41,767 nt of DNA from a virus (lineage: Duplodnaviria > Caudoviricetes). A program made the translations under genes and the position numbers. The notes beneath the pieces are model-generated. The model did no database searches. It was not told where the DNA came from and worked only from the letters and a program-made list of their open reading frames with translations. The stretch covers positions 1-41,767 of the IMG/VR virus record IMGVR_UViG_3300032303_000221; one strand, written 5' to 3'. This document shows positions 2,354-39,911 of the stretch, piece by piece (position 1 is the stretch's first letter; each line of letters begins with the position of its first letter).

Positions 2354-2828
2354 TCTGATCCTTCCAAGCTACCTTCAAGCCAAGCTTGAAAATGAAAATG
2401 TTTCACGTGAAACATCTGAGCCGGGGGCACTAGAAGTGGCCTTCGTTCCAGAAGCCGAAAGGGTCTTTGACCCAACCAAACTCCCAGATACAGCCCTTGC
2501 CCGTCTTCCCCAACCTACAGGCTGGCGACTTCTTGTGCTTCCTTATCGTGGAAATGCCAAGTCAAAGGGTGGCATTCTATACGCAGATCAAACTGTTGAG
2601 CAGAATAGCCTAGTTACGGTTGTCGCCTATGTGCTGGCTATCGGTCCCGACGCCTATTGCGATAAAGCCAAGTTCCCGAATGGAGCGTGGTGCAAGAAGG
2701 GTGACTGGGTAATCATCGGTCGCTACGCTGGGGCGCGTTTCAAGATTGAGGGTGGGGAAGTCCGCATCATCAACGATGACGAGATCATCGCAACAATCGC
2801 TGATCCCTCAGACGTTTCCAACGTCTAG
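2343..2828 (+). CDS. groES: phage GroES-like co-chaperonin with N-terminal extension
   Basis: LPQPTGWRLLV...KSKGGI...VLAIGPDAY...KKGDWVIIGRYAG...RIINDDEIIA matches the Cpn10 pattern; located in the head module. Confidence 0.88.
   Translation: MTSSLILPSYLQAKLENENVSRETSEPGALEVAFVPEAERVFDPTKLPDTALARLPQPTGWRLLVLPYRGNAKSKGGILYADQTVEQNSLVTVVAYVLAIGPDAYCDKAKFPNGAWCKKGDWVIIGRYAGARFKIEGGEVRIINDDEIIATIADPSDVSNV
2398..2415. promoter_or_regulatory. parS: parS-type centromere site (ParB-binding palindrome)
   Basis: ATGTTTCACGTGAAACAT is a perfect 18-bp palindrome; 2399-2414 is identical to the bacterial chromosomal parS consensus TGTTTCACGTGAAACA. Confidence 0.8.
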
Positions 2829-2850: not shown

Positions 2851-3720
2851 ATGTCAGATGTAAGTGATGTGGATGACGACGGTTCTGTCGAGGTCACAAT
2901 CGAGGAGATTGGATCCCCTGAGGCCAAGTCGGTAGAGAAGGTTGAAGTTCAAAGCGATCAAGAACTTCAGGATCATTCCGAGTCTGTCAGGAAGCGAATT
3001 GACAAGCTCACCTATCGCCTGAGGGAGGCCGAGCGCCGAGAACAAGCAGCTTTGGAGTTTGCCAAGGGTCTGAAAGGGCAGTTGCAAAACTATCAGGAGC
3101 GGACAAGCGTTCTTGACCGGACATTGGTCAACGAGTTTGACCACCGGCTGAAGACCCAAGACAAGATGATCCGCGAGGAGCTTCGACGGGCTATTGACGA
3201 GGGGAATGTCGAAGCGCAGATCACTGCACAGACAGCCCTTGCAAATTTAGCTGTGGAAAACGATAAGCTCCGCCAGTCAAAACTTCGCAGGGAACACGAG
3301 GATCGACAACGGGCGGCAGTCCAAGCTGAACCGCCGCAGCGCGTTGAGCAGCAAGCCCCGCGCCCGGATCCAAAGGCTCAATCTTGGGCAGAACGGAACG
3401 AGTGGTTTGGCAACGACAAGGCCATGACGGCTACGGCGTATGCAATTCACGCTGATCTTGTTGAGGTTGAGGGCTTTGATCCCACTTCTGATGACTACTA
3501 TCAGGAGCTTGATAGCCGTATCCGCAATGAGTTTCCCCATAAGTTCAAAGCCTCTCAGGGGAATACCCGCCCACAGGCTGCCGTGGCCTCCGCCCGGACG
3601 ACCGTGAAATCTAGCAACAACAAGATGAAACTGTCTGAAAGCCAGATCAGGGTTGCCAAGTCGCTAGGAGTTAGTTTAGAAGAGTATGCTAGACATGCTC
3701 GGATACAGCAGCAGGGTTAG
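2851..3720 (+). CDS. capsid scaffolding protein (putative)
   Basis: Acidic N-terminus, long coiled coil (SVRKRIDKLT), PDPKAQSWAERNEWFG, C-terminal LSESQIRVAKSLGVSLEEYARH; upstream of the capsid genes; GGAG RBS before ATG 2851. Confidence 0.75.
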   Translation: MSDVSDVDDDGSVEVTIEEIGSPEAKSVEKVEVQSDQELQDHSESVRKRIDKLTYRLREAERREQAALEFAKGLKGQLQNYQERTSVLDRTLVNEFDHRLKTQDKMIREELRRAIDEGNVEAQITAQTALANLAVENDKLRQSKLRREHEDRQRAAVQAEPPQRVEQQAPRPDPKAQSWAERNEWFGNDKAMTATAYAIHADLVEVEGFDPTSDDYYQELDSRIRNEFPHKFKASQGNTRPQAAVASARTTVKSSNNKMKLSESQIRVAKSLGVSLEEYARHARIQQQG

Positions 3721-3724
3721 TCAT

Positions 3725-4186
3725 ATGACTATTGACCGTAAGCCAAGATCAGAGACTGTCCGTGACAAGGAGTCACGCCCACTTGTGTGGAAACCACCGT
3801 CCACCTTGGACGCACCCCCGGCCCCCGAGGGTTATACGCACCGCTGGATCCGTATGGAAGCCAACGGCCATGACGACCGGAAGAACATTTCCGCACGTAC
3901 ACGCGAGGGCTTTGAGCTTGTTCGCGCCGAGGAATACCCTGATTGGGATCTCCCCACCATCAACGACGGCAAACATGCTGGCGTTATCGCAGTTGGCGGA
4001 TTGGTCCTAGCCCGTATTCCAAATGAACTCGTTCGCCAGAGAACTGAATACTTCCGGAAGCAGACGCAACAGCAGCTTCAGGCGGTGGACAATGATCTTA
4101 TGCGTGAGCAACACCCTTCAATGCCCATGATCCGTCCTGAGAGACAATCACGGGTAACTTTCGGTGGAAATCGTTCCTCCGAATAA
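3725..4186 (+). CDS. conserved head-module protein
   Basis: WKPPSTLDAPPAPEGYTHRWIR...REGFELVR...GGLVLARIP; between scaffold and capsid genes. Confidence 0.75.
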   Translation: MTIDRKPRSETVRDKESRPLVWKPPSTLDAPPAPEGYTHRWIRMEANGHDDRKNISARTREGFELVRAEEYPDWDLPTINDGKHAGVIAVGGLVLARIPNELVRQRTEYFRKQTQQQLQAVDNDLMREQHPSMPMIRPERQSRVTFGGNRSSE

Positions 4187-4203
4187 TCACAAGGATCTGA
4201 GCA

Positions 4204-4821
4204 ATGGCAAATATCAATGCCTCGTTCGGGCTTCGCCCGTATCGTATGCTTGGAAGCGGTGCGAATACCAACGGTGACGTTGTGTATTCCATCCAGACTG
4301 CGGCAACTGCTGGTTCGTCCAACGTGATCTATCAGGGCTCCCCTGTTATCCCGTTGTCTAACGGCATGATTGATATCGTCGGCGCTGCTGCCGGTGGTAC
4401 TGTCCCGCTTCTGGGTTCGTTTCTGGGTTGCAACTATATCGACCTGACGGGTAAGCCCAAGTGGTCTCCCTTCTGGCCCGGCACTTCTGCGGTGTATGCC
4501 AATTCTATCGCTACGGCGACTATTTCGGCGCACCCCGATCAGACGTTCCTGATTAACTGCGATGCGGCTGCTGCGGACACTCTTGTTCACAACAACGCGA
4601 ACTTTGCCACCGCCACCAGCGGTAGCAGCACCACGGGCTTGTCTTCGGGCAAGCTTGCCGTCTCGACGGCTGCAACGACTAACACGCTTAACCTTCGCAT
4701 TCTTGGCTTTGAGGACACTCCCGCCAATAGCGATGCTTCGGTTGCTGGTCGTTTGGCTATCGTCCTCCTCAACAACCACTTCTACCGTTACAATGCTAAC
4801 GGTACTGGTGCGGGCGTCTAA
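4204..4821 (+). CDS. capsid decoration / minor capsid protein (putative)
   Basis: MANINASFGLRP start, Ala/Thr/Gly-rich and beta-rich, directly upstream of the major capsid gene. Confidence 0.65.
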   Translation: MANINASFGLRPYRMLGSGANTNGDVVYSIQTAATAGSSNVIYQGSPVIPLSNGMIDIVGAAAGGTVPLLGSFLGCNYIDLTGKPKWSPFWPGTSAVYANSIATATISAHPDQTFLINCDAAAADTLVHNNANFATATSGSSTTGLSSGKLAVSTAATTNTLNLRILGFEDTPANSDASVAGRLAIVLLNNHFYRYNANGTGAGV

Positions 4822-4835
4822 AGGGAGTTTGAACA

Positions 4836-5744
4836 ATGGCAATCACTCGTTCACAACTCCTCAAGGAACTGGAGCCGGGTCTTAACGCCCTCTTCGGTAT
4901 GGAGTACGACCGCTACGACAACGAACACGCTGAAATCTTCGATACGGAGACTTCGGATCGTGCGTTTGAAGAAGAGGTTATGCTGTCTGGCTTCGGTCAG
5001 GCCCCTGTAAAGGGTGAAGGCGCGGCCATCGTGTACGACACGGCTGGTGAGGCTTTCACGGCTCGCTATACCCATAATACCATCGCGCTGGCTTTTGCGA
5101 TTACTGAGGAAGCCGTGGAGGATAACCTCTATGACAAACTCAGTGCCCGCTACACCCGTGCGCTGGCTCGCTCGATGTCCAACACCAAGCAAGTGACTGC
5201 GGCTGGTACGTTGAACAACGCTTTCTCGTCCAGCTACACGGGCGGCGACGGTGTTTCGCTCATCAACAGCGCGCATCCCACCACGGGTGGCGGAAACTGG
5301 TCGAACACTCTGGCGACTGCGGCGGATCTGAACGAGACTTCTCTCGAACAGGCTCTGATCGACATCGCCGGTTTCATCGACGAGCGTGGTCTGAAGATTG
5401 CTCTGCGTGGCATGAAGCTCATTATCCCCCCGAGCCTCCAGTTCACTGCCGAGCGTATCCTGAAGTCCGAGCAGCGCGTTTCGACGAGCGACAACGACAT
5501 TAACGCTTTGAAGTCTGGTGGCTACATGCCTCAGGGCTTCACCGTTAATCACTTCCTGACCGATACGGATGCTTGGTTCATCAAGACCGATGCTCCGAAC
5601 GGCATGAAGCACTTCGTTCGTTCGCCCATCAAAACGGCGATGGAAGGCGACTTTGAAACGGGCAACGTCCGTTACAAGGCCCGCGAGCGTTACAGCTTCG
5701 GGTGGTCGGATCCCCGTTCGATGTATGGTTCTCCCGGCGCTTAA
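4836..5744 (+). CDS. major capsid protein (Mu gpT-like, HK97 fold)
   Basis: MAITRSQLLKELEPGLNALFG...SDRAFEEEVMLSGFG...ITEEAVEDNLY...YKARERYSFGWSDPR; strong GGGAG RBS; followed by a terminator. Confidence 0.9.
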   Translation: MAITRSQLLKELEPGLNALFGMEYDRYDNEHAEIFDTETSDRAFEEEVMLSGFGQAPVKGEGAAIVYDTAGEAFTARYTHNTIALAFAITEEAVEDNLYDKLSARYTRALARSMSNTKQVTAAGTLNNAFSSSYTGGDGVSLINSAHPTTGGGNWSNTLATAADLNETSLEQALIDIAGFIDERGLKIALRGMKLIIPPSLQFTAERILKSEQRVSTSDNDINALKSGGYMPQGFTVNHFLTDTDAWFIKTDAPNGMKHFVRSPIKTAMEGDFETGNVRYKARERYSFGWSDPRSMYGSPGA

Positions 5745-12196: not shown

Positions 12197-13243
12197 ATGG
12201 CAACGGCATACGGAATCGGCTCAGGCCCTGTAGGTGACGGCCCCGTAGGCGGGCCGGTGCCGGATGCTGCCTCCGATGTGTCCGTATCCGTAACCGGGGT
12301 ATCCTCCACCGGCTCAGTTGGCACGGCTGATGCTGGAGCTATCACAAGCATTGAAGTTTTTTTTGAGGGTTGGGGGCGAGCGCCCGGCTGGGACCAAGGT
12401 CCTTTCGGCACGGGGACCGTGGATATCGGTCTGGCAACGGGTGCCGTTGGTACAGCAACGATTACGGCAGATGCCAACGTAGACACGACCGGGTCTTCCG
12501 CCACAGGTGCTGTCGGCGACTCCACCATCACGGCAGATGCCAATATCAGTTTGACTGGGGTATCAGCAACCAGCGCAGTCGGAACTGCAACCGTCACGGC
12601 GGATGCTAACGTAGATACAACCGGATCCTCTGCCACGGGTGCGGTTGGAACAGTCACTCTCGTATACGACGCCAACGTCAGCCCGACGGGTGTATCTGCC
12701 ACGGGTGCGGTTGGAACAGTCACTCTTGTATACGACGCCAACGTCAGCCCCACAGGCCTGTCTGCCACGGGTTCTGTTGGGACCGCGACGGTCACGGCAG
12801 ATGCCAACGTCAGCCCCACAGGCCTGTCTGCCACGGGTTCTGTCGGGACTGCGACGGTCACGGCAGATGCCAATGTAGACCTCACGGGCTCTTCCGCCAC
12901 CGGCAACGTAGGGACTGCAACTGTTGCGGCAGATGCCAATGTAGACCTCACGGGCGTATTCGCCACAAGTTCTGTTGGAAGTGTTGCGGTCGCGTTCCCC
13001 ATTGATGTTTTCCCTACGGGTGTCTACGGCACGGGGTATGCGGGATCCGTTACGGTAACGCTAGACATAAACGTCTTTCTTGCAGGGATCAGTGCGACAG
13101 GGTATGTTGGGCCAGTTCTGGTTTGGGGCCAGATTGTTCCCAACCAAGATCCGAATTGGACTCAGGTATCCCCTGCTCAGACGCCCGCTTGGTCGCCAAT
13201 ATCTCCATCCCAAGATCCCGGATGGACCCCGATAGCCGCTTAG
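12197..13243 (+). CDS. repetitive virion fibre/shaft protein
   Basis: About 9 repeats of a 22-aa unit (SATGAVGTVT...DANV-x-x-TG); Trp/Pro-rich C-terminus. Confidence 0.75.
   Translation: MATAYGIGSGPVGDGPVGGPVPDAASDVSVSVTGVSSTGSVGTADAGAITSIEVFFEGWGRAPGWDQGPFGTGTVDIGLATGAVGTATITADANVDTTGSSATGAVGDSTITADANISLTGVSATSAVGTATVTADANVDTTGSSATGAVGTVTLVYDANVSPTGVSATGAVGTVTLVYDANVSPTGLSATGSVGTATVTADANVSPTGLSATGSVGTATVTADANVDLTGSSATGNVGTATVAADANVDLTGVFATSSVGSVAVAFPIDVFPTGVYGTGYAGSVTVTLDINVFLAGISATGYVGPVLVWGQIVPNQDPNWTQVSPAQTPAWSPISPSQDPGWTPIAA
12431..12990 (+). repeat. 66-bp coding tandem repeat array
   Basis: tctgccacggg recurs at 12629, 12695, 12761 and 12827 (period 66); flanking units are more degenerate, so the edges are approximate. 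Confidence 0.85.
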
Positions 13244-15466: not shown

Positions 15467-17317
15467 ATGGCGCTCCAAAAGCTTCAATTCCGGCCCGGTG
15501 TCATTCGCGATGTAACGGGCTATACAAATGAAGGCGGCTGGCGTGACAGCAACCTAATCCGTTTTCGTTTGGGTTTTCCACAGTCCATTGGCGGCTGGAC
15601 GAAGTATGCTCCACACAACCCATTCCTAGGTACGTGTCGGTCCCTATTGAACTGGGTTACTCTCGATAGTTCAAATCTCCTTGGCATGGGAACAAACCTA
15701 AAGTTCTACATTGAGGAGGGCGGGGTAAACTTCGACATCACCCCTATTCGGGATACTGTCACCCTCAATAATCCATTCACGGCTACGTCTGGTTTATCTG
15801 TCATAGCCGTTAGCGATGTTGCACATGGATGCGTTAACGGGGATTTTGTTACGTTTAGCGGAGCGGTATCTCTTGGTGGGAACGTAACCGCAGCGGTCCT
15901 CAATAAGGAGTACCAGATCACCTTTGTTAGCGTAGACGCTTACACGATCACCGTTGCCGTCACCGCTTCTGGTTCTGACACAGGACATGGTGGCTCTTCG
16001 GTATCTGCGGCCTACCAGATTAATACTGGTCTTGATACGCAAATTGGCGGCACTGGTTGGGGCGCAGGGACGTGGGGCCGTGGAACGTGGGGTAGTGCCA
16101 CTACGGCTGTCGTCGGAAATACCCTTCGTCTATGGGCGCAAGATAACTATGGTGAGGATCTTGTTTTCAATGTTCGCGATGGGGGGATCTACTATTGGGA
16201 TGCAAACTTTGGCAATACGGGTAGGGCCGTTGCTCTGGACTCCCTAACCACGGATACTCAAACCCCTGACGTGGCTACTCAAGTGATGGTCTCAGACCGT
16301 GACCGACACGTAATCGCGCTTGGTGCTAACTATGGGAATGGGGCTCCCCAAGATCCATTAATCATTAGGTTTTCTTCGCAAGAGGATCCGTTTACTTGGA
16401 CACCGGATCCAACCAATACGGCTGGTGATCTTCGTCTTGGTTCAGGATCGCGTATTATACGCGGCGTTGAGACGAAGCGAGAAATCGTCGTATTTACCGA
16501 CGTGGCAGCTTACTCGCTTCAATTTGTCGGTCCTCCCTACACGTTTGGTATTACGCAGATCGCTGCGGGTATAAACATCAACGGCTTCAACAGTTTTGCG
16601 ACTGTCGATGATACTGTTTACTGGATGGGGACTAGCTCCTTTTACGTATATGCGGGTCAGACGGCACCGCTCGTATGTCCCATTCAGGATTACATTTTCG
16701 ACAATTACAACAGTGCGCAGTCAGATAAGGTCTGCACGGGCGTCGTTGCGGAGTACAGCGAGATCACTTGGTTCTATCCGTCCGCTGACTCGGAAGAGAA
16801 TAACCTGTACGTGACATACAACTATGCTGATAGGGTGTGGACGCACGGATCAATGCCCCGTACCGCATGGATTGACTCCGGTATTCGCCTCTATCCAACA
16901 TCCGCCTCGGTAGACAACTACCTGTACTATCAGGAGTTTGGGACGGATGATGGAAGCACTGAGCCTCCATCTCCGCTTAATGCGTATGTTGAGAGTGCGC
17001 CAATCGACATTGGTGATGGAGACAAGTTCTCATTCGTTAGACGTTTAATCCCCGACCTCTCATTCTTTAATGCTACGAACAGTCCAACTGCTGACTTCAT
17101 CCTGAAGACGCAGAACTACCCCGGCTCAAACTATCAAAGCGGGTCTGACTCTGCGGTTGTTAGGACTTCGAAGGTCCCAGTGGATCAGTACACCCAAGTC
17201 TGCGACATCCGTCTCAGGGGTCGATCTGTCATTCTGCGGGTGGAGAGCAATAAAGTTGGAACCCGTTGGAGTCTTGGATCGCCTCGTATTGAAACGCAAG
17301 TCGATGGTAAACGCTGA
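15467..17317 (+). CDS. tail stabilisation / tail tubular protein B-like (nozzle)
   Basis: About 616 aa, beta-rich; MALQKLQFRPG start, IRFSSQEDP...AGDLRL, C-terminal RLRGR...DGKR; immediately precedes the ejection proteins. Confidence 0.7.
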   Translation: MALQKLQFRPGVIRDVTGYTNEGGWRDSNLIRFRLGFPQSIGGWTKYAPHNPFLGTCRSLLNWVTLDSSNLLGMGTNLKFYIEEGGVNFDITPIRDTVTLNNPFTATSGLSVIAVSDVAHGCVNGDFVTFSGAVSLGGNVTAAVLNKEYQITFVSVDAYTITVAVTASGSDTGHGGSSVSAAYQINTGLDTQIGGTGWGAGTWGRGTWGSATTAVVGNTLRLWAQDNYGEDLVFNVRDGGIYYWDANFGNTGRAVALDSLTTDTQTPDVATQVMVSDRDRHVIALGANYGNGAPQDPLIIRFSSQEDPFTWTPDPTNTAGDLRLGSGSRIIRGVETKREIVVFTDVAAYSLQFVGPPYTFGITQIAAGININGFNSFATVDDTVYWMGTSSFYVYAGQTAPLVCPIQDYIFDNYNSAQSDKVCTGVVAEYSEITWFYPSADSEENNLYVTYNYADRVWTHGSMPRTAWIDSGIRLYPTSASVDNYLYYQEFGTDDGSTEPPSPLNAYVESAPIDIGDGDKFSFVRRLIPDLSFFNATNSPTADFILKTQNYPGSNYQSGSDSAVVRTSKVPVDQYTQVCDIRLRGRSVILRVESNKVGTRWSLGSPRIETQVDGKR

Positions 17318-17699: not shown

Positions 17700-19295
17700 A
17701 TGCAGGGCACTGATCTCCTTCGCGATCCCGGTATCCAAAAGGCTCTCAGCCGTTCCAAGTTCACGGAACGGGATGTGCCTGAACTCAGCACGGCTATCGG
17801 TGACGCTTACTCTGGTCTGACGCCAGAGCAAAAGCAGGCTCTTCAGGGGCTCTCCAACGAACTCGATACCTTCCCTGTTCCAAAGCTCATGGCCTTTGGG
17901 TCTCTTCTGGAATATCTGAAGAAGAACAAGGATCGGTACAAAGCTGTCGTCCAGAAGCTCTACGCCTCCAAGCTTATCAATGAGGGTGATCTTCCTGCCG
18001 AATACGATGATCGCCTGTTCGCAATCATCGAGGGCATGGTCCATCAGGCCATGATGAAAAAGCCGGAGGGCGGTGGGCCGAATATGCCTGCTCCTATGCC
18101 CCCGGCACCCGGCTACAAGAAGGGTGGGATTGTCAGCCTACATGAGGCGGCACAGCGTCTGAAGGATGCAGGCCGTAACGATGATACGATGCTGGCTCAT
18201 ATCACGCCCGAAGAGGCTCTACTCTTGAAGAGCCGGGGCGGTGAGGGCAGCATCAACCCTGCAACGGGTCTTCCGGAATATGGGTTCTTCTCGTCCATCG
18301 GAAGCTTCTTCAAGTCGGCTGCGCCTATCGTTCTTCCTGTTCTCGGCGGTCTCGTAGGCGGTCCTCTCGGGGCTGCGGCAGGCGCGGGCGTGGGTTCTCT
18401 TGTTAGCGGGGCCTCGCCCGCCAATGCAGTCAAGAGCGCGCTCTTTGCGGGCGCTGTTGGTTTTGCAGCGTCTGGCGTCAGTAGCGTGATGCAGGGCGGG
18501 ACATTTATGGGCGGCGTTCAGAACGCGCTTCCCGAGTCCCTTGGTGGTGGGACAAATACCGTTGGTGGGGGCGGAGCGCAGAAGGGCTTTCTTGAGTCCA
18601 TGATGGGTGGTCCAAGTACCCCGGTTACGCCAGAGGGGGTAATCCCAAATGCTACGGGGGCGGGATCTCCAAGCATCCAAGGTGATCTGAACCGACCCGG
18701 TACTCTTTATGAGCCGCCCTCTGCCGACGCTTTTCAAAAAAGTGTTTCGAGTGGGTTTACGGGCGATACATTGAAAGCACCTACCGCTGCTCCGACATCC
18801 ACAGGTGGCGCTCTTAGCGGTCTTGGCGGCTTAGTAGATAAGGCTGGAAATTGGATCAAGGCAAATCCCCTGACTTCAGTTGGTATCGCTGGCGTCGGTG
18901 GAGCCCTGCTTGCAAGTTCGATGGCGAACAAGTCCACTACCCCCGGCGCTCTTCCCCCCCGTCAGACTGGAAACGATATTCTTGCGGCTAACCCAAGCCG
19001 CTACGCCTTCAATATCAGCAACTTCACTCCTACGCAGCGGGCTCCTACATCACCTGTTGTTCCGTACCAGCCGGGTGGATTGGGTGCCATTCGAATGGCA
19101 ACTGGTGGTGTAGCCAAGCAGGGTGGAAAGATTGATGGACCCGGCACGGGAACTAGCGACTCGATCCCTGCGCGTCTCAGTGATGGTGAGTTTGTCATGA
19201 CAGCAAAAGCTGTCAGAGGTGCTGGTGGCGGTGACAGAATGAAGGGCGCTCGTAAAATGTACGAGATCATGCACAGATACGAGCGGATGGCTTAA
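17700..19295 (+). CDS. internal virion / ejection protein
   Basis: LAHITPEEALLLKSRGGEGSINPATGLPEY, Gly/Ala hydrophobic segments, C-terminal IDGPGTGTSDSIPARLSDGEFV. Confidence 0.7.
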   Translation: MQGTDLLRDPGIQKALSRSKFTERDVPELSTAIGDAYSGLTPEQKQALQGLSNELDTFPVPKLMAFGSLLEYLKKNKDRYKAVVQKLYASKLINEGDLPAEYDDRLFAIIEGMVHQAMMKKPEGGGPNMPAPMPPAPGYKKGGIVSLHEAAQRLKDAGRNDDTMLAHITPEEALLLKSRGGEGSINPATGLPEYGFFSSIGSFFKSAAPIVLPVLGGLVGGPLGAAAGAGVGSLVSGASPANAVKSALFAGAVGFAASGVSSVMQGGTFMGGVQNALPESLGGGTNTVGGGGAQKGFLESMMGGPSTPVTPEGVIPNATGAGSPSIQGDLNRPGTLYEPPSADAFQKSVSSGFTGDTLKAPTAAPTSTGGALSGLGGLVDKAGNWIKANPLTSVGIAGVGGALLASSMANKSTTPGALPPRQTGNDILAANPSRYAFNISNFTPTQRAPTSPVVPYQPGGLGAIRMATGGVAKQGGKIDGPGTGTSDSIPARLSDGEFVMTAKAVRGAGGGDRMKGARKMYEIMHRYERMA

Positions 19296-21887: not shown

Positions 21888-24800
21888 ATGGCGATTCACG
21901 AAGTCCAAGCGCCTGATGGCGCAATCTTGCAGATTGAGGCTCCCGAGAACGCCACCCCAGAACAGATCGTCGCTTATGCGAAGAACTATGCCTACCCGAA
22001 ATATCTTGAGGACAAGAACAAGCCTGAGGAGAAGCAGTCGTCCCTCCGTCAGGTAGCCGACGTTCCTCTTCAAGTTGGTAAGGGCGTAGTCTCTGGTGTC
22101 CGCATGATTGCGGATGCTTTTGGTGCAGGAAGCAACACCTCCAATACAATCAAGGGTGCCGAGGATTATCTCGGCAGTCTTCTGTCAGCTAAGTCGCAGA
22201 AGAACGCACAAGAAATTTCCCGCATCATGAATGATGCGAAGGATAAGGGTGTATGGGATCAGGTTGTGGCTGCGGCCAAAGCGATCAGCACAGCCCCGGT
22301 TGATCTTGTTGCAAATGCTCTTGGAACCTCTGCCCCTGCTTTCCTTGCGGGTATTGCTGCTGGTCCAGAGATTGCCGCCACAGGAGCTGCGCTTGGTATC
22401 GGCGCACTCATGGGTGCTGGATCCATCAAGGGATCCATCTACGAAGAGGTAAAGCAGGAACTGACAGGAAAACTCCCTGCCGAGGAAGTCGAGAAGCGCG
22501 CTCAACTTGCCCAGCAGTATAACGGTCAGAACCTCGACCAGATCCTCATGGGCGCTGGTTTCGGAACCCTTGATGCTATCACTGGTGCGAACCGTATCAT
22601 TTCCAACGCCGCAAGACGAGCCGCTGGTAAAACCGCAATTATGGGAGGGGAAAAGGAAGTCGGGAAAGGCGTCCTAAAGCGCACAGCCTTGGGCGCTGCG
22701 GAAGAGGCTCCGCTTGAGGCGCTTCAGGGTGGACAAGAACAACTTGCCCAGAACATTGCCATTCAGCGGGAAGGCATCGACCGCCCGACGTGGCAGGGCG
22801 TTGCAGGACAGGCGGCGCTTGAAGGTGGCGCTGGCGCTCTTGCGGGTGGCGTAACAGGCGGCGTTCTTGGCAAACGCCCCGAACCCATTATCCCGCCAAC
22901 CAGCACATCCACTGCACCGCCTCCCCCAAATGCCGCCGCCGGAGCGGTTGTTCCTCCCGCGCTGCCCCCGGTCCCCGGACTTCCGTCCACTGGTGGGCCT
23001 CTGGCGACTCCGGGGTCCGTGGCCCAGACGTTAGCCCAACAGCAGCCGCCAGAGATCCAACAGTTAATTCAAGCACTCCAAACGCAACAGAAGCTTGCCA
23101 CACAGACAGGAAATACAGGATCGGCCCCACAGCCGGGTCCGACGCAACTTTTCGTTCCTCCTCCGGTGGATCTATTTGCTCCATCCGCAACACCTCTTGG
23201 AATTGCGCCTGCTCCAACGCAAGCGGCCCCGGCAATCGCCCCTATCACATCGGCCAAACTTCCTCCCGCCCTGTCAAACTCCACGCCGTTCTTTGGAACA
23301 AATGGTGGAAACGTCGCCCTTACCTTTGAGAACGATATCGACAGAGCCCTCTATATCGTAAGGGATCAAAAGAAGAAGTCGAAGGCTCACGATAAGTACA
23401 TCGAATGGCTTATGGGTCAGGGCTTCACTGCTGCTGGTATCAAGAAGGAAGCGGCCAAGGTAAAGAGCGGCATCAAGAGCCTTCTGAACATGGCCCCCGG
23501 TGTGGACTATTACCATGTCCCCCCGATCTTCACGCCTTCGGCTCCGAAAGCAGCGCCTATCGCCCAGACCCAGCAACAGCCGCCCGAGATCCAACAGTTA
23601 ATTCAAGCACTTCAAGCGCAACAGCAGCCTCCTGTTGGGCAGGCTCCGGTTGGGCAGCCTCCTATTGTCGAACCTCCGACCACGGCCCTTGGACAGACGG
23701 CAGCTCCTGTTGTTGAGCCGCCCGTGGACCTTGGACCAGAGCCCGTCTTTGCTCCTCCGATGTTGGTGAAGCCTCCCGTTCCTGTTACACCGACCCCGCC
23801 AGAGCATTTAACAAAGACTGTCAACACAAGCGTCAAGTCTGTCCGTAAGCTTCAGACTGAGCCGATGCTTGTGGAACTTTCTGACGTTATCTCCTCGGAG
23901 GTTCCCGGCTACCAGAAAGAACTTCAACCTCGCGACCGCAGTAAGCTTGAGTCTGAAAATCAAATCAACGGCATCGTCGCCGAGTTTGATCCCAGCCGTC
24001 TTATGTTCGACCCGAGTGCTGATCGTGGCGCTCCCATCGTCAACGAGAACGGTCACGTTGAGAGCGGCAACGGTCGTATCATGGCGCTCCGCAAAATATA
24101 CGAGAGCCGTCCAGAACTTGTGATCGACTACAAGAACGAACTTATGTCGAACGGATTTGACATTGAGGGCATGAAGAACCCGGTTCTTGTGCAGCGTCGG
24201 GTGACGCCCCTGACGCCGAGGCAGATCGTTGATTTTGTGGAGACGCAGAACAAGCCCGGCGTTCTTGAGCCGGGTCCGACCGAGATAGCAAAGAGAGACG
24301 CCCTCCGGATAAACGCTTCGATGCTCAACAAGATCCCTGAAAACGGGGATTGGACAAATCCAAACTTTATTCGGGAGTTCATGAAAAATGTCTCCGACAA
24401 CGAAATGGGAGGCTTGTCTGAGAACGGGAAGATAACGGAGAAGGGCTATAAGAGGATTCGAAATGCAATCTTCTATCTTGCATACGGGGATGCGCAGTCT
24501 CTTGCACGTATCTCCGTAACACCAGAAGACAATGTGAAGTCGATCTCCACGGCGCTCATCAAGAACGCCGCGAACTTTGCAAAGATCAGAGCCTCTATCA
24601 ACGAGGGTAGAACGGATCCGGGTTTCTCGTCCGAACCTCTGATTGATGCGGTTAACCGCATATCGGATATGCGTGACAGAAAATTTGGGTTTGAGGATTA
24701 CATCAAGCAACAGGATGTCTTCAATCCAATCTCGCCTATGACAGAAAAGTTTATGCGTCTGTTCTACAGCGACAAGACTCGTTCCATCGGAGACAAGTCC

Positions 24801-27800
24801 CGTGCGCTTGGTCTTGAGCGCATATCACAGGGGCTTAACTACTACTCGACGGAGGCATTGAAGATTTCCCCCGAGCCTGCGCTTGGGTTTGGTCTCCCTC
24901 CCGTCACTCCGATGGATCTCATAACGGCTGCAACCAAGATAGCGCACCGGACAGTTCAGCCTTCTGAAACGCAGACCACGGAGCCCGTGGTCGAGACGCT
25001 TCCTCTTGTGACCGAGAACATCCAACCACCGACCGTGGAAACCGCACCTCCGCTTGCGGCAATAACTGTCACCGAGAAGAAGCGTGTCAATCTTGGACCT
25101 ATGGACGGGACGGTGACTCGGGTCACGTTCTCCGATGGAACAGTGACTGATATACAGCGGATTAATTCTGCGGGCACGATGGGCCTACCGGGGTGGCACG
25201 ACACATCCAAGAGCGTTACGCAGTTCTCTTATCTTGGAGACACTGAGGCGCAAGCTATCCAACAACTTCTTCAGCGCCGCAATGCTGAGAAGTTTGCTCC
25301 GATGACCACAACACCTTTGGATAATGCTGTTCTCGATAGCGTGAAAAAAACTACGCATTTGAACGTCAACGATGCGACACGCGCTTACTTAGATGAGAAA
25401 CTTCCGGGGGTCTTGGATGTTCTCAAAGAAGCACAATACCGTCTGTACCCCGGCACGACTATGGAAATAATAGGGATCCAGAATAGGACTATGGGTGCCT
25501 ATGGTAGGGCCGCTACAACACCTAACAATGTCAAAATACAGTTTTCTGTCGAAGACCTGATGAAGGATTACGGGGGAAAGAACTATCCACAGAAACTGAT
25601 GCACACGCTTCTTCACGAGTTTTCGCATCCGATACAGAAATTCTTGATCCACACATCCTCCGTGGAGACTCAAGTCGAGATCGCAAAACAGTTTCAGAAA
25701 GACCGTAGCAGCACTGCTGCCCAGCGCGCCTTTCTGTACAAATATCTGGTCGAAAGCCAGAACCCCAGCATCGACATGAGTTCGTTGAAGTCGAAGCTCC
25801 TGGAAGCATTTGACCTAACAGAACAGCAGTATCAAAAAATCCTCAATACCACGAAAGACATTGGGGAGAAGAACGACCTGTACCGCTTCGGGCTAAACAG
25901 GAAGTACCTTCGCAGCTTTGAAGAGTGGGTTGCAGAGAGGGGGGCCAAGTGGCTCTCGAAGGAACTTGAGGGGCGTATCCCCCAAACGGTTTTTGAGAAA
26001 TTCGAGAAGGCTGTTCTGGACAAGCTTCGTGATGCTTACGAAGTTGTTGCTAAGATCATGGGTATTCGTACAGACAACGGGGCCTTTGAGAAGCTTCTGT
26101 CAGACGTATGGGGGGTTAGGACAACAACCCGTTACCGTGAGACAGGGAAAGTGGACTTCAAAACGAATAAGTCGATTACGTCTTTTCCAGATCTTCCGTC
26201 CGATCAGAATTTTGCATATGAAGCCGCTGTAAATGGAAACCCGGACCCTATCAATAACCTCCCCGGTGGACCGACTGCGAAACTAAACTCCGAGCGGTGG
26301 TCCAAGGTCGTCAGTGCGACCCGCGAGTTCTTTGATCCGTGGTTCACGGTAGACAAGTTCCCGATCTTGTCAGAGTTCAGAAACCTTCTGTTCGGCAAGA
26401 TTGGCATGGCTACGCAAAGGGCGAAGGATCTTTCCAGCACCATCTCCAAGGGAACCCAAGAGGTCCAGACGCAGACCTATACCTATCTCACCACCCGCAA
26501 CGCAGACCCTTCGTTAATTACCGACGAGAAGGTTCGCGCCGCTGCGGAGGAAGTGAAGAAGGAGATCAACCGTACTGCGCTTGAGTTGGTGCAGAAGGGG
26601 TATATCTCCGAGGATAGCCTCGCCAAATACTACGACCAGTATCTCCCTCGTATGTACCTCTACTACGAAATGACAGGTCGTGGGATCAAGACGAGCAACA
26701 TGGGCGTGAGCCCACGCGAGTACCTTGATCTCCGAAAGGAGCTTCCCGAAGAAGCCCGTCAAATTCTGGGCGAGATCAAGAACCCCGCCTTCCTTTCGTA
26801 CATCGCTCTGTCTCGTCCCCAAGCGGACTTGGCAAAGATGGACTACTTCAACAACATCGTTCGTCAGACCGATGTGCGTTGGATTGCGCCCAACAGTCTT
26901 GTGGATTTCGAGGGTCACAAGGTAACGCCATATTGGCTGGCTAACGAAGCCAAGGTTATGCGTAAGCTTGGGGACCTGACAGAACAGACAGACCCTGCTG
27001 GTTCGCAGGCGATGTTTGCTCGTGCAACCAATCTTCAGTTAGCGGCAGATCAAGTTCTTGGAACCCTCTCGGATCAGATACCCGACGGCTACAAGCGTAT
27101 GCCTGACAGCGCGAGTTACGGCGCTCTGCGCGGAGCCATCGTCCAGAAAGGCATCTACGACGACATCATTGGGACCTTCGTTGCAATCCCGATTAGCGAG
27201 AAGCCCTTTATGCAGTCGCTGCTTGGCGACGAGCGAAGCAGCCTCGTAAAGGCAAACCAAATCTGGAAGATGATGAAGGTCACGCTCAACGTGCCTTCGC
27301 AGATCCGCAACATGGTGTCGAACGCCATCGCATTGAACGTCTTCGGCGGCGTTCCGTTCTATCGGATTGCGCCGCTCTTGCTTCGTGCTTCCAAGGAAGT
27401 GTCGGAGAACGGAAAATACTGGCAGGAGGCGCAGAAGTACGGCATCACTGGCGGAACCATGTCGTCTGCTGAACTGATCCAGATGCGGGCGACCCTCGAA
27501 CAGTACCTCCGTAAGGGCGGCGGCAAGGATATGATGGGAGCCTTTGCCGCCGTCCGTATCGCTGCGGGCAATGCTGTTGGCGCGGCTTCTGACATCTACC
27601 AGAAGACAGAAGTTCTATTCAAGATGGTGCAGTTTCTTCATGAGCGTGACAAGCCGGGCGTGACAGCTTCTCAGGCTGTCGATGCAGCCAATGAGGCGCT
27701 GTTTGATTACACGAAGGTTAATCCAAACATCCGCTTCCTGCGTAACTCCCCCATCGGTCTTCCCTTCGTTACCTATTACTACAAGGTGCTGCCGAAGCTG

Positions 27801-28640
27801 GTGGAGACGGCCTACAAGCATCCGTTGCGGTTCGCCCCGTATGTGGCATTGGCGGCTTCAATCCCGTATCTCACGATGGCCGCACTCGATATCGACTCGG
27901 ATGACTACGAGGCTCTTCGTAAGAGCCTACCCGAGTACATCCGCAACAAAGGCTCCCTCTTCATCCTCCCATGGAAGGATGAAAAGGGCCGTTGGGAATA
28001 CATGGATGTTTCATCCTTCTTCCCGTGGGCAGCGTTCACCGATCCGATCATACAGGCAACCCTACGGCAGGACCCCAAGGGGGCGGCATCGGAAGCCATT
28101 AAGCTTATCACGCCTTCAGGCCCCATCGTTACGACACTTGCCGCCATCACAACTGGCAAGGATCCGTTCACCGACAAGGACATCATCGACCCTCGGCAGA
28201 CCCCCGAGAACAAGGCTCTGGCGCTCATGTCCTACGTCTGGAGCCAGACGCTGCCCTCGATGCTGGCGATTGATCTGGTCAATCCGCAGAACGCCTCTGG
28301 TGCAATCCCCCGTCTTTACAACGACGTCTTCGGGGACGGGACCGGGCTCGACAAGCGCGGCCAACCCAAGCCGGAGTTTCTGGCAGACGCTGCACGTTTG
28401 TTCGGTGCGAACATCAGCCCGCTAGAACCTGTCACCCAGCGCGCCCTGAACATCAACCACATGCTCGCCCAAGTACACGCCTCCGAAAGCCTGCGGGCAC
28501 AGGTTGCCAAGGACCAGAGCCTGACGCCAAATAGACGGATGCAGGAGATCAACTCGCTCAACGAAAAGATCCGAGACGACTACAAGAAGCTACAGGAGTA
28601 CGCGCAGGAGACTGCCCGCGCCACCAGCCTCAAGAAATAG
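21888..28640 (+). CDS. giant polyvalent ejection protein (DdrB/ParB-like domain, zincin metallopeptidase, C-terminal LPD-like region)
   Basis: 2250 aa; QPRDRS...GAPIV...VESGNGR ParB-like motif (about 23870-24900); HEFSH at 25614-25628 with downstream EEWVAE; last gene of the virion operon. Confidence 0.78.
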   Translation: MAIHEVQAPDGAILQIEAPENATPEQIVAYAKNYAYPKYLEDKNKPEEKQSSLRQVADVPLQVGKGVVSGVRMIADAFGAGSNTSNTIKGAEDYLGSLLSAKSQKNAQEISRIMNDAKDKGVWDQVVAAAKAISTAPVDLVANALGTSAPAFLAGIAAGPEIAATGAALGIGALMGAGSIKGSIYEEVKQELTGKLPAEEVEKRAQLAQQYNGQNLDQILMGAGFGTLDAITGANRIISNAARRAAGKTAIMGGEKEVGKGVLKRTALGAAEEAPLEALQGGQEQLAQNIAIQREGIDRPTWQGVAGQAALEGGAGALAGGVTGGVLGKRPEPIIPPTSTSTAPPPPNAAAGAVVPPALPPVPGLPSTGGPLATPGSVAQTLAQQQPPEIQQLIQALQTQQKLATQTGNTGSAPQPGPTQLFVPPPVDLFAPSATPLGIAPAPTQAAPAIAPITSAKLPPALSNSTPFFGTNGGNVALTFENDIDRALYIVRDQKKKSKAHDKYIEWLMGQGFTAAGIKKEAAKVKSGIKSLLNMAPGVDYYHVPPIFTPSAPKAAPIAQTQQQPPEIQQLIQALQAQQQPPVGQAPVGQPPIVEPPTTALGQTAAPVVEPPVDLGPEPVFAPPMLVKPPVPVTPTPPEHLTKTVNTSVKSVRKLQTEPMLVELSDVISSEVPGYQKELQPRDRSKLESENQINGIVAEFDPSRLMFDPSADRGAPIVNENGHVESGNGRIMALRKIYESRPELVIDYKNELMSNGFDIEGMKNPVLVQRRVTPLTPRQIVDFVETQNKPGVLEPGPTEIAKRDALRINASMLNKIPENGDWTNPNFIREFMKNVSDNEMGGLSENGKITEKGYKRIRNAIFYLAYGDAQSLARISVTPEDNVKSISTALIKNAANFAKIRASINEGRTDPGFSSEPLIDAVNRISDMRDRKFGFEDYIKQQDVFNPISPMTEKFMRLFYSDKTRSIGDKSRALGLERISQGLNYYSTEALKISPEPALGFGLPPVTPMDLITAATKIAHRTVQPSETQTTEPVVETLPLVTENIQPPTVETAPPLAAITVTEKKRVNLGPMDGTVTRVTFSDGTVTDIQRINSAGTMGLPGWHDTSKSVTQFSYLGDTEAQAIQQLLQRRNAEKFAPMTTTPLDNAVLDSVKKTTHLNVNDATRAYLDEKLPGVLDVLKEAQYRLYPGTTMEIIGIQNRTMGAYGRAATTPNNVKIQFSVEDLMKDYGGKNYPQKLMHTLLHEFSHPIQKFLIHTSSVETQVEIAKQFQKDRSSTAAQRAFLYKYLVESQNPSIDMSSLKSKLLEAFDLTEQQYQKILNTTKDIGEKNDLYRFGLNRKYLRSFEEWVAERGAKWLSKELEGRIPQTVFEKFEKAVLDKLRDAYEVVAKIMGIRTDNGAFEKLLSDVWGVRTTTRYRETGKVDFKTNKSITSFPDLPSDQNFAYEAAVNGNPDPINNLPGGPTAKLNSERWSKVVSATREFFDPWFTVDKFPILSEFRNLLFGKIGMATQRAKDLSSTISKGTQEVQTQTYTYLTTRNADPSLITDEKVRAAAEEVKKEINRTALELVQKGYISEDSLAKYYDQYLPRMYLYYEMTGRGIKTSNMGVSPREYLDLRKELPEEARQILGEIKNPAFLSYIALSRPQADLAKMDYFNNIVRQTDVRWIAPNSLVDFEGHKVTPYWLANEAKVMRKLGDLTEQTDPAGSQAMFARATNLQLAADQVLGTLSDQIPDGYKRMPDSASYGALRGAIVQKGIYDDIIGTFVAIPISEKPFMQSLLGDERSSLVKANQIWKMMKVTLNVPSQIRNMVSNAIALNVFGGVPFYRIAPLLLRASKEVSENGKYWQEAQKYGITGGTMSSAELIQMRATLEQYLRKGGGKDMMGAFAAVRIAAGNAVGAASDIYQKTEVLFKMVQFLHERDKPGVTASQAVDAANEALFDYTKVNPNIRFLRNSPIGLPFVTYYYKVLPKLVETAYKHPLRFAPYVALAASIPYLTMAALDIDSDDYEALRKSLPEYIRNKGSLFILPWKDEKGRWEYMDVSSFFPWAAFTDPIIQATLRQDPKGAASEAIKLITPSGPIVTTLAAITTGKDPFTDKDIIDPRQTPENKALALMSYVWSQTLPSMLAIDLVNPQNASGAIPRLYNDVFGDGTGLDKRGQPKPEFLADAARLFGANISPLEPVTQRALNINHMLAQVHASESLRAQVAKDQSLTPNRRMQEINSLNEKIRDDYKKLQEYAQETARATSLKK
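23037..23624 (+). repeat. 54-bp direct repeat pair inside the polyvalent gene
   Basis: Copies at 23037-23090 and 23571-23624; identical 26-nt core gagatccaacagttaattcaagcact at 23052 and 23586. Confidence 0.85.
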
Positions 28641-39325: not shown

Positions 39326-39535
39326 TTAGACCCACATACGGGTTCGGCTGACGAGGGTTTCGTCCTTGTAGATATGCAACTCAGCGTTCGCCTGCTCCGC
39401 AGGAATAATCCTATGTCGCGGAACAAGGTAAACCTGACCCAACGGAAGGGTCACAAGCCGTGAGTCAATCGCTTGGTTGACAGGTTTGTGGCGAATCCTA
39501 TCCTTCTTATCTCGTGGGTGTATCACTCTCACCAT
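39326..39535 (-). CDS. hypothetical protein
   Basis: 69 aa, AAGGAG upstream, fills the gap in a co-directional cluster. Confidence 0.55.
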   Translation of the reverse strand: MVRVIHPRDKKDRIRHKPVNQAIDSRLVTLPLGQVYLVPRHRIIPAEQANAELHIYKDETLVSRTRMWV

Positions 39536-39911
39536 CTTCTTTCTCCTTCGCCATTTCTCGGCAGAGAACAGGAAACATACCCTTCGTGGATGCTCGGTTG
39601 TCGTTCAACGTCCCCAACAATTCGCCGTCGAGAAGTATTGCGCAACAGGCCATCACATGACCAAGGTGGTGAACCCCGCTTTCTGGATCCATCGTCTCAC
39701 CATCGTACCAAGAAATCAAGTGCCTCATCGCTGCATCATAATAAATAGATGCACTTATATAATTCTCACGCCAGTTCATCAGACCATACTTGTCCCGACC
39801 ATTCATCATGGCCTTTGACAAATGGAGCAACGAGATAGGTGGAACACAAGCCATCGACGGCTTACGCATACCAAGCACAGACTTCGGATTATTGTCCGGT
39901 GGGGTTTCCAT
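39507..39911 (-). CDS. dATP/dGTP diphosphohydrolase N-terminal domain protein (DUF5664-like)
   Basis: NPK...KP...VPP...GRDKYGLMNWRE...YYDAAMRHL..WYDGE..DPESGVHHLGHVMACCAILLD...DNR. Confidence 0.85.
   Translation of the reverse strand: METPPDNNPKSVLGMRKPSMACVPPISLLHLSKAMMNGRDKYGLMNWRENYISASIYYDAAMRHLISWYDGETMDPESGVHHLGHVMACCAILLDGELLGTLNDNRASTKGMFPVLCREMAKEKEDGESDTPTR

What the first reader, a model, noticed from the sequence alone, without database searches (positions are those of the whole stretch)
2398..2415. Perfect bacterial parS centromere hidden inside the phage groES-like gene
Seen: ATGTTTCACGTGAAACAT is a perfect palindrome whose central 16 bp equal the canonical chromosomal parS consensus. 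It reads NVSRET in the N-terminal extension outside the Cpn10 core, where coding constraint should be low. It contains the only CACGTG I found scanning by eye. An exact 16-mer match by chance in 42 kb is of order 1e-5 under uniform composition. Known: parS loads host ParB, which recruits ParA and SMC. No parA or canonical parB is in the window. Inference: the phage borrows host ParABS/SMC to position or segregate its genome, or titrates ParB to stall host division.
Basis: partly seen in the sequence, partly recalled or inferred. Interest (0 to 1): 0.87.

Follow-up and report, generated by a model that had tools for sequence, protein, structure and literature searches.

The report
Wandering host centromere in aquatic phages
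A phage related to the HTVC023P-type pelagiphages carries one perfect copy of the bacterial chromosome's centromere sequence (parS) inside its co-chaperonin gene; relatives carry the same sequence in about a dozen unrelated places and those tested encode no partition proteins, so the host's ParB likely loads onto the phage DNA, as described for Bacillus phage phi29.

Summary
Confirmed. 2398-2415 is a perfect 18-bp palindrome, and its 16-bp core equals the chromosomal parS consensus (chance about 1e-5). It lies in the variable N-terminal linker of a GroES-like gene of an HTVC023P-type phage. The window's clade keeps it (6 of 7 distinct sequences exact, one central variant). Only 4 of 120 GroES homologues have VSRET, so the protein does not need it. 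Across 131 dereplicated family loci the parS core ranks first of all 16,384 palindromic 14-mers (21 loci, 12 non-homologous contexts). No ParA, ParB or integrase was found in 5 records, 3 of them complete. Pelagibacter-family genomes have ParB and the identical site, read as NVSRET in rsmG. About 5,700 IMG/VR stretches hold the 16-mer, against 39 for a control. Limits: most near-complete relatives lack it (3 of 9 carry it), the host is unknown, binding is untested, and HTVC027P's copy may ride on a protein motif. Best reading: host ParB likely loads here, most likely to position or carry phage DNA. Precedent: phi29. This scan has already noted the idea on other DNA (57 earlier findings).

The parts
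2399..2414 (.). Chromosomal-type parS 16-mer (core of the 18-bp perfect palindrome 2398-2415)
   Evidence: identical to the Hyphomonas neptunium parS and fits the B. subtilis, Burkholderia chrI and Caulobacter consensus in Table 1 of PMC7022226
2343..2828 (+). GroES/Cpn10-like gene (161 aa); parS occupies codons 19-24 in the variable N-terminal linker
2851..5744 (+). Context: head module downstream of groES (three conserved ORFs of unknown function, then the major capsid gene 4836-5744), same order as in HTVC023P
23847..24200 (+). Context, probably not part of the system: ddrB-like ParB-superfamily domain (residues 654-771) in the 2250-aa protein 21888-28640
   Evidence: PF18763, E 1e-27; found only in the window and G003 among the fetched family DNA

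Best explanation
The palindrome is a host-type parS that this phage lineage keeps at the DNA level, and the host's own ParB likely loads on it so that phage DNA would be handled by the host's ParA/SMC machinery and be positioned or carried through division like a plasmid. Shown: the site, its identity with chromosomal parS, its family-wide enrichment and changing position, and no phage ParA, ParB or integrase in the records tested. Inferred (about 0.8): selection acts on host ParB binding. Inferred (about 0.6 of that): the benefit is tethering or inheritance of the injected genome while a slow-growing host delays the lytic cycle, a non-sporulating analogue of phi29 spore entrapment. The linker of the GroES-like protein is simply a place where VSRET costs little; Pelagibacter-family hosts hide their own parS the same way in rsmG.
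For: Exact 16-mer in about 5,700 IMG/VR stretches (estimate from 2 of 64 parts) against 39 for a same-composition control palindrome; the variant TGTTCCACGTGGAACA in about 2,600. In 131 dereplicated family loci, 21 have the 14-bp core within 1 mismatch and 7 exactly; 402 permuted controls give mean 0.17, max 6; rank 1 of 16,384 palindromes. These hits fall into 12 non-homologous contexts, against at most 5 for any non-parS palindrome among the 92 tested. 9 of 15 single mismatches are the T/C change written into the Caulobacter consensus and 4 more are at the centre. Whole records: 19 of 34 and 6 of 26 match, reversed-pattern control 0 in both. VSRET in 4 of 120 homologues, all at least 83% identical. 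No ParB_N, AAA_31 or integrase in 5 of 5 records. Pelagibacter-family genomes: ParB in 38 of 40, core within 1 mismatch in 56 of 60, exact in 39 (unpublished G097 left out); in L480 it sits in gidB/rsmG just before parA. Papers, passages only: phi29 has five parS and uses Spo0J (PMC2731898); chromosomal par operons with a single parS stabilise plasmids (PMC7022226).
Against: Patchy: only 3 of 9 IMG/VR relatives at least 90% complete and 2 of 11 GenBank relatives carry it. G004 (98% complete, capsid 88% identical) has none within 3 mismatches of the 16-mer. Synonymous conservation inside the window clade is weak evidence: 39 of 75 four-fold and 22 of 51 two-fold sites vary elsewhere, giving a nominal p of about 0.03 by my hand calculation, and nearby codons are also invariant. 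Some family hits may ride on protein motifs: portal EFHVEL and the HTVC027P FHVKH motif, whose His codon is CAC in 12 and CAT in 13 of 25 sequences. The host is unknown. No binding, localisation or carrier state has been observed; HTVC023P-type phages are described as lytic (bioRxiv 2019.12.14.876532, passages).
Confidence: 0.5

Rival explanations
1. Same ParB loading, but the benefit is sabotage: after replication, many phage copies with one parS each outnumber the host's one to three sites, draw ParB/ParA off the origin and stall segregation and division, keeping resources in the infected cell.
For: Pelagibacter-family genomes mostly have a single match. Plasmid-borne strong parS cut Caulobacter viability about 1000-fold (PMC5815017, passage). 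No integrase, lytic family.
Against: A decoy would be expected to multiply; nearly all family records have one copy, two in G014 and G053. Not tested.
Confidence: 0.22
2. ParB spreading from the site tunes or delays late-gene transcription, or coats phage DNA against nucleases.
For: Most sites lie between just upstream of the terminase gene and the capsid stop, though the loci were fetched around groES and capsid. ParB at a single parS alters comCDE expression in S. pneumoniae (PMC7022226, passage).
Against: No fixed position relative to a promoter: the nearest promoter-like site is about 200 bp upstream and at chance level; 12 different contexts.
Confidence: 0.12
3. The palindrome serves something else: an mRNA hairpin, or an operator for a phage-encoded protein, for example the ddrB-like ParB-fold domain.
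For: It folds as a 7-bp hairpin in the predicted mRNA structure. The window encodes a ParB-superfamily domain.
Against: Folding z is only -1.5. A hairpin would not need this exact sequence in 12 contexts. The ddrB-like domain was not found in the fetched DNA of G032, G035 or G037, which carry the site, and Pfam shows no HTH in that protein.
Confidence: 0.08
4. Neutral: a chance product of protein sequence, or a captured scrap of host rsmG, with no function.
For: Most near-complete relatives lack it. The host site reads the same NVSRET. Some family hits overlap conserved protein motifs.
Against: Chance about 1e-5. The sister GroES group of equal length has an unrelated linker. By eye, the flanks do not resemble rsmG beyond two bases. 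Family- and collection-wide enrichment.
Confidence: 0.08

Closest known systems
parS sites of virulent Bacillus phages phi29 and Nf, used with host Spo0J (PMC2731898, passages; Meijer et al. 2005 seen only as cited there and in PMC9437464)
   Same: Host-type parS on a lytic phage genome, read by the host's ParB.
   Different: phi29 has five sites and the described outcome is entrapment in the spore. Here there is one site, inside a coding sequence, in a family whose closest cultured members infect non-sporulating Proteobacteria. Its position changes between lineages. Binding is untested.
Chromosomal ParABS of Alphaproteobacteria, including Pelagibacter-family parS inside gidB/rsmG (PMC7022226 Table 1)
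   Same: Identical 16-mer; in L478 and L480 it is read in the same frame as NVSRET.
   Different: No parA/parB and no origin beside it; it is on a phage.
Phage-plasmid partition systems such as P1 ParABS (P1 mentioned in PMC12704722, passage; details recalled)
   Same: A centromere on phage DNA.
   Different: Those encode their own ParA/ParB and, from recall, use their own site sequence. None was found here.
HTVC023P-type pelagiphages (bioRxiv 2019.12.14.876532 and PMC9599517, passages)
   Same: Capsid 74.6% identical to HTVC023P; same groES-to-capsid gene order; GroES is a core gene of the group.
   Different: 54% G+C, with relatives in lake runs. Neither paper's main text contains the word parS; supplements were not seen.

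Membership tests
Chromosomal-type parS | 16-bp palindrome matching TGTTNCACGTGAAACA | tested here: met
Chromosomal-type parS | Bound by ParB, with loading and spreading | not testable with these tools
   needs EMSA/SPR or ChIP
Chromosomal-type parS | Near oriC and parAB of the same replicon | tested here: not met
   phage record; no ParB_N or AAA_31 in 5 of 5 records
phi29-like host-parS piracy | Host-type parS on a phage with no partition genes and no integrase | tested here: met
   the window is 71% complete, three relatives with the site are 100% complete
phi29-like host-parS piracy | Host has ParB and the same parS | tested here: inconclusive
   true for the Pelagibacter family, host of the closest cultured relatives; this phage's own host is unknown (one search gave only scattered MAG bins)
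phi29-like host-parS piracy | Several sites and spore entrapment in a sporulating host | tested here: not met
   one site; the ten closest records name no spore-forming host; only a distant one (35% capsid identity) is a Bacillus phage
Phage-plasmid ParABS (P1/N15 type) | Own parA and parB genes | tested here: not met
HTVC023P-type phages | Close capsid, PolA, helicases, GroES and shared gene order | tested here: met
   terminase and portal seen in close relative G003; no phylogeny was built

The most novel reading that the evidence does not exclude
Lytic phages of non-sporulating bacteria, including one of the most abundant aquatic families, repeatedly evolve a single host centromere wherever their sequence tolerates it and ride or jam the host's ParABS-SMC machinery. 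That would be a gene-free route to a carrier state or to division arrest, present in thousands of viral contigs.
Probability: 0.55. Interest if true: 0.75.

Novelty: new variant of a known kind. Interest (0 to 1): 0.5.

Why it matters
If true, a 16-bp cis element that gene-based annotation cannot see lets lytic phages use or block host chromosome segregation outside the sporulation setting of phi29. It would offer a concrete, testable mechanism for pseudolysogeny or division arrest in slow-growing aquatic bacteria, and a possible host-prediction signal. This site is one instance of a pattern the scan has met many times. What it adds is a family-level test showing turnover among about 12 positions, and a warning that some copies may be protein-driven.

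Tried and rejected
Host assignment: the capsid scan of genome contigs gave 46 loci in MAG/SAG bins of many phyla, read as binning of free phage contigs and not used. GANTC is depleted (O/E 0.54), but so is CCNGG (0.49), so this is no reliable sign of a CcrM host; no CtrA-type TTAA-N7-TTAA site was found (both motifs recalled). HTVC027P as clean support: rejected as ambiguous. Its site lies in an unannotated 123-aa ORF on a conserved FHxxHP motif; of 68 relatives aligned there (71 fetched) 10 have the exact core and 21 are within 1 mismatch, the His codon is split 12:13, though the Val codon is GTG in 19 of 25. Portal EFHVEL (2 of 58 aligned) and the single hits L395 and L307 may be chance. Dropping these four and the three query-clade representatives leaves 14 of the 21 loci, still above the best non-parS palindrome (10). 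Read-laying listed no difference in 2398-2415, but 107 rows were hidden, so it is not used. The BLAST look at GenBank phages had E-values of 0.9 or more and is not used. The promoter/terminator scan, RNA folding and repeat search showed nothing special at the site. No second half-site cluster was found. Literature searches for a survey of phage parS returned only the phi29 work; SAR11 ParB returned nothing relevant. The library lacks most subscription papers, and no supplements were read. No tree was built, so gains versus moves were not counted.

Full report
Observation. Window 2398-2415 is a perfect 18-bp palindrome, the longest in the window, and holds its only CACGTG. Its core, 2399-2414, is the only match to the parS 16-mer within three mismatches. 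Markov models of the window expect 1.3e-5 to 3.5e-6 exact copies. The genome lacks 28 of the 64 six-base palindromes altogether, which makes the site stand out more. The 16-mer equals the Hyphomonas parS and fits the Bacillus, Burkholderia and Caulobacter consensus (PMC7022226, Table 1 passage). It is read as NVSRET at codons 19-24 of ORF 2343-2828, well before the Cpn10 domain at residues 57-152.

The phage. The window is the whole record G000, about 71% complete. It has PolA, primase, helicases, a GH108 lysin, capsid and tail genes. Its capsid is 74.6% identical to Pelagibacter phage HTVC023P; other relatives infect Roseobacter, Gammaproteobacteria, Alcaligenes and Caulobacter or come from cyanobacterial cultures (22 records). 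The groES-to-capsid order matches HTVC023P. The group is described as lytic, with GroES as a core gene (passages of bioRxiv 2019.12.14.876532 and PMC9599517; neither main text has the word parS). No ParB_N, AAA_31 or integrase match was found in the window, in its closest long relative G003, or in three complete relatives that carry the site (0 of 5 each). Relatives at about 85-88% identity occur in lake and freshwater runs. The host is unknown.

Is it the protein or the DNA? Of 120 listed homologues only 4 contain VSRET, all at least 83% identical; the next group (70-74%, same length) has an unrelated linker. Among 7 distinct coding sequences of the window's clade (88-93% protein identity to the window), 6 keep the exact 16-mer. 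L002 changes the preceding residue from N to T but keeps the first T of the site, and L004 has a central change giving VSHET. Synonymous sites vary at 39 of 75 four-fold and 22 of 51 two-fold positions elsewhere and at none inside the site. My hand estimate is p about 0.03, which is weak because neighbouring codons are also invariant.

Family-level test. 239 loci fetched with GroES or capsid were reduced to 131 representatives. 21 hold the 14-bp core within one mismatch and 7 hold it exactly. 402 permuted palindromes give mean 0.17 and max 6. The core ranks first among all 16,384 palindromic 14-mers, and a parS variant ties for second. The 22 hits form 12 groups with unrelated flanks, against at most 5 for any non-parS palindrome among the 92 with four or more loci. 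They lie in the groES linker, just after the capsid stop, in small ORFs before groES, in large ORFs after the terminase, upstream of the terminase and in the portal. Thirteen of 15 single mismatches fall in two classes: 9 at the T/C position of the Caulobacter consensus and 4 at the centre. Removing three query-clade representatives and four hits that may be protein-driven leaves 14 loci. Whole-record scans gave 19 of 34 (the contigs over 10 kb among the 80 loci) and 6 of 26 (45 asked, 19 not held), with the reversed control at 0. Nearly all positives have one copy.

Results against. Only 3 of 9 records at least 90% complete carry the site. Of 11 GenBank relatives tested (11 of the 22), only HTVC027P (exact core) and an Alcaligenes phage (two-mismatch palindromic variant) do. 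G004, with 88% capsid identity and 98% complete, has none. The HTVC027P copy overlaps a conserved FHxxHP protein motif and its codons are only partly constrained, so it is ambiguous. The trait is optional and lineage-specific.

Wider context. The exact 16-mer is estimated in about 5,700 IMG/VR stretches and a second parS variant in about 2,600, against 39 for one same-composition control. These count stretches, not species, may include host DNA flanking proviruses, and rest on a single control. In the family of a Pelagibacter genome, ParB was found in 38 of 40 and the core in 56 of 60 within one mismatch (39 exact; the reversed control matched in 16 of 60). These counts leave out unpublished G097, on which no claim rests. 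In L480 the site sits in gidB/rsmG, read as NVSRET, directly before parA. So hosts of this family's cultured members have the matching ParB system and hide parS in a gene in the same frame.

Mechanism. Shown: the site, its enrichment, its changing position, and the lack of phage partition genes in the records tested. Inferred: host ParB loads on it (about 0.8). From established knowledge (recalled), loaded ParB engages ParA and SMC; chromosomal par operons with a single parS stabilise plasmids. I rank positioning or inheritance of phage DNA first (0.5), because one copy per genome fits a handle better than a decoy. Titration comes second (0.22): extra parS on a plasmid cut Caulobacter viability about 1000-fold (PMC5815017, passage). 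Transcriptional or protective effects (0.12), another binder or a hairpin (0.08) and neutrality (0.08) follow.

Comparison and novelty. It most likely works like the parS sites of phi29, which has five and uses host Spo0J for spore entrapment (PMC2731898 and PMC9437464, passages). It is not a member in the strict sense: one site, no known sporulating host, binding untested. Seven searches found no report of host-type parS in phages of non-sporulating bacteria; the library lacks most subscription journals and no supplements were read. This scan holds 57 earlier findings with the same words on other genomes (unchecked notes) and none for this sequence or this family name. Verdict: a real feature, a new variant of a known kind, interest 0.5.

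Noticed in passing
window 23847-24200 (ORF 21888-28640): ddrB-like ParB-superfamily domain with an ESGNGR motif inside a 2250-aa probable virion protein; among the fetched family DNA found only here and in G003 (53%).
   Followed up: partly
whole window: Strong avoidance of 6-bp palindromes (28 of 64 absent) while GGATCC (29) and AAGCTT (28) are common; GANTC and CCNGG at about half of expectation.
   Followed up: partly
L427:3217-3588 (HTVC027P 16216-16587): Unannotated 123-aa ORF with 71 relatives in IMG/VR; codons near its 3' end (about 98-105) are almost invariant at DNA level, suggesting an overlapping cis element or repeat between the terminase genes.
   Followed up: partly
L277:10914, L276:7120, L052:13554, L376:9436: The parS just after the capsid stop shows paired changes of its outer bases (C..G versus G..C) between lineages.
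   Followed up: no
L428:2935 (Alcaligenes phage vB_Af_QDWS535, 47935): Carries the palindromic variant TGTTCCACGTGGAACA about 1.9 kb before a terminase-annotated gene; whether it matches the host's parS was not checked.
   Followed up: no
window 12434-12997: Eight or more 66-nt (22-aa) tandem repeats in ORF 12197-13243, which has no Pfam or PHROG match.
   Followed up: no
window 39510-39911 (-): dATP/dGTP diphosphohydrolase N-terminal domain protein (PF18909), a family I recall from base-modifying phages.
   Followed up: no
window 19085-19100 and 24646-24661: Two other perfect 16-bp palindromes, unrelated to parS.
   Followed up: no
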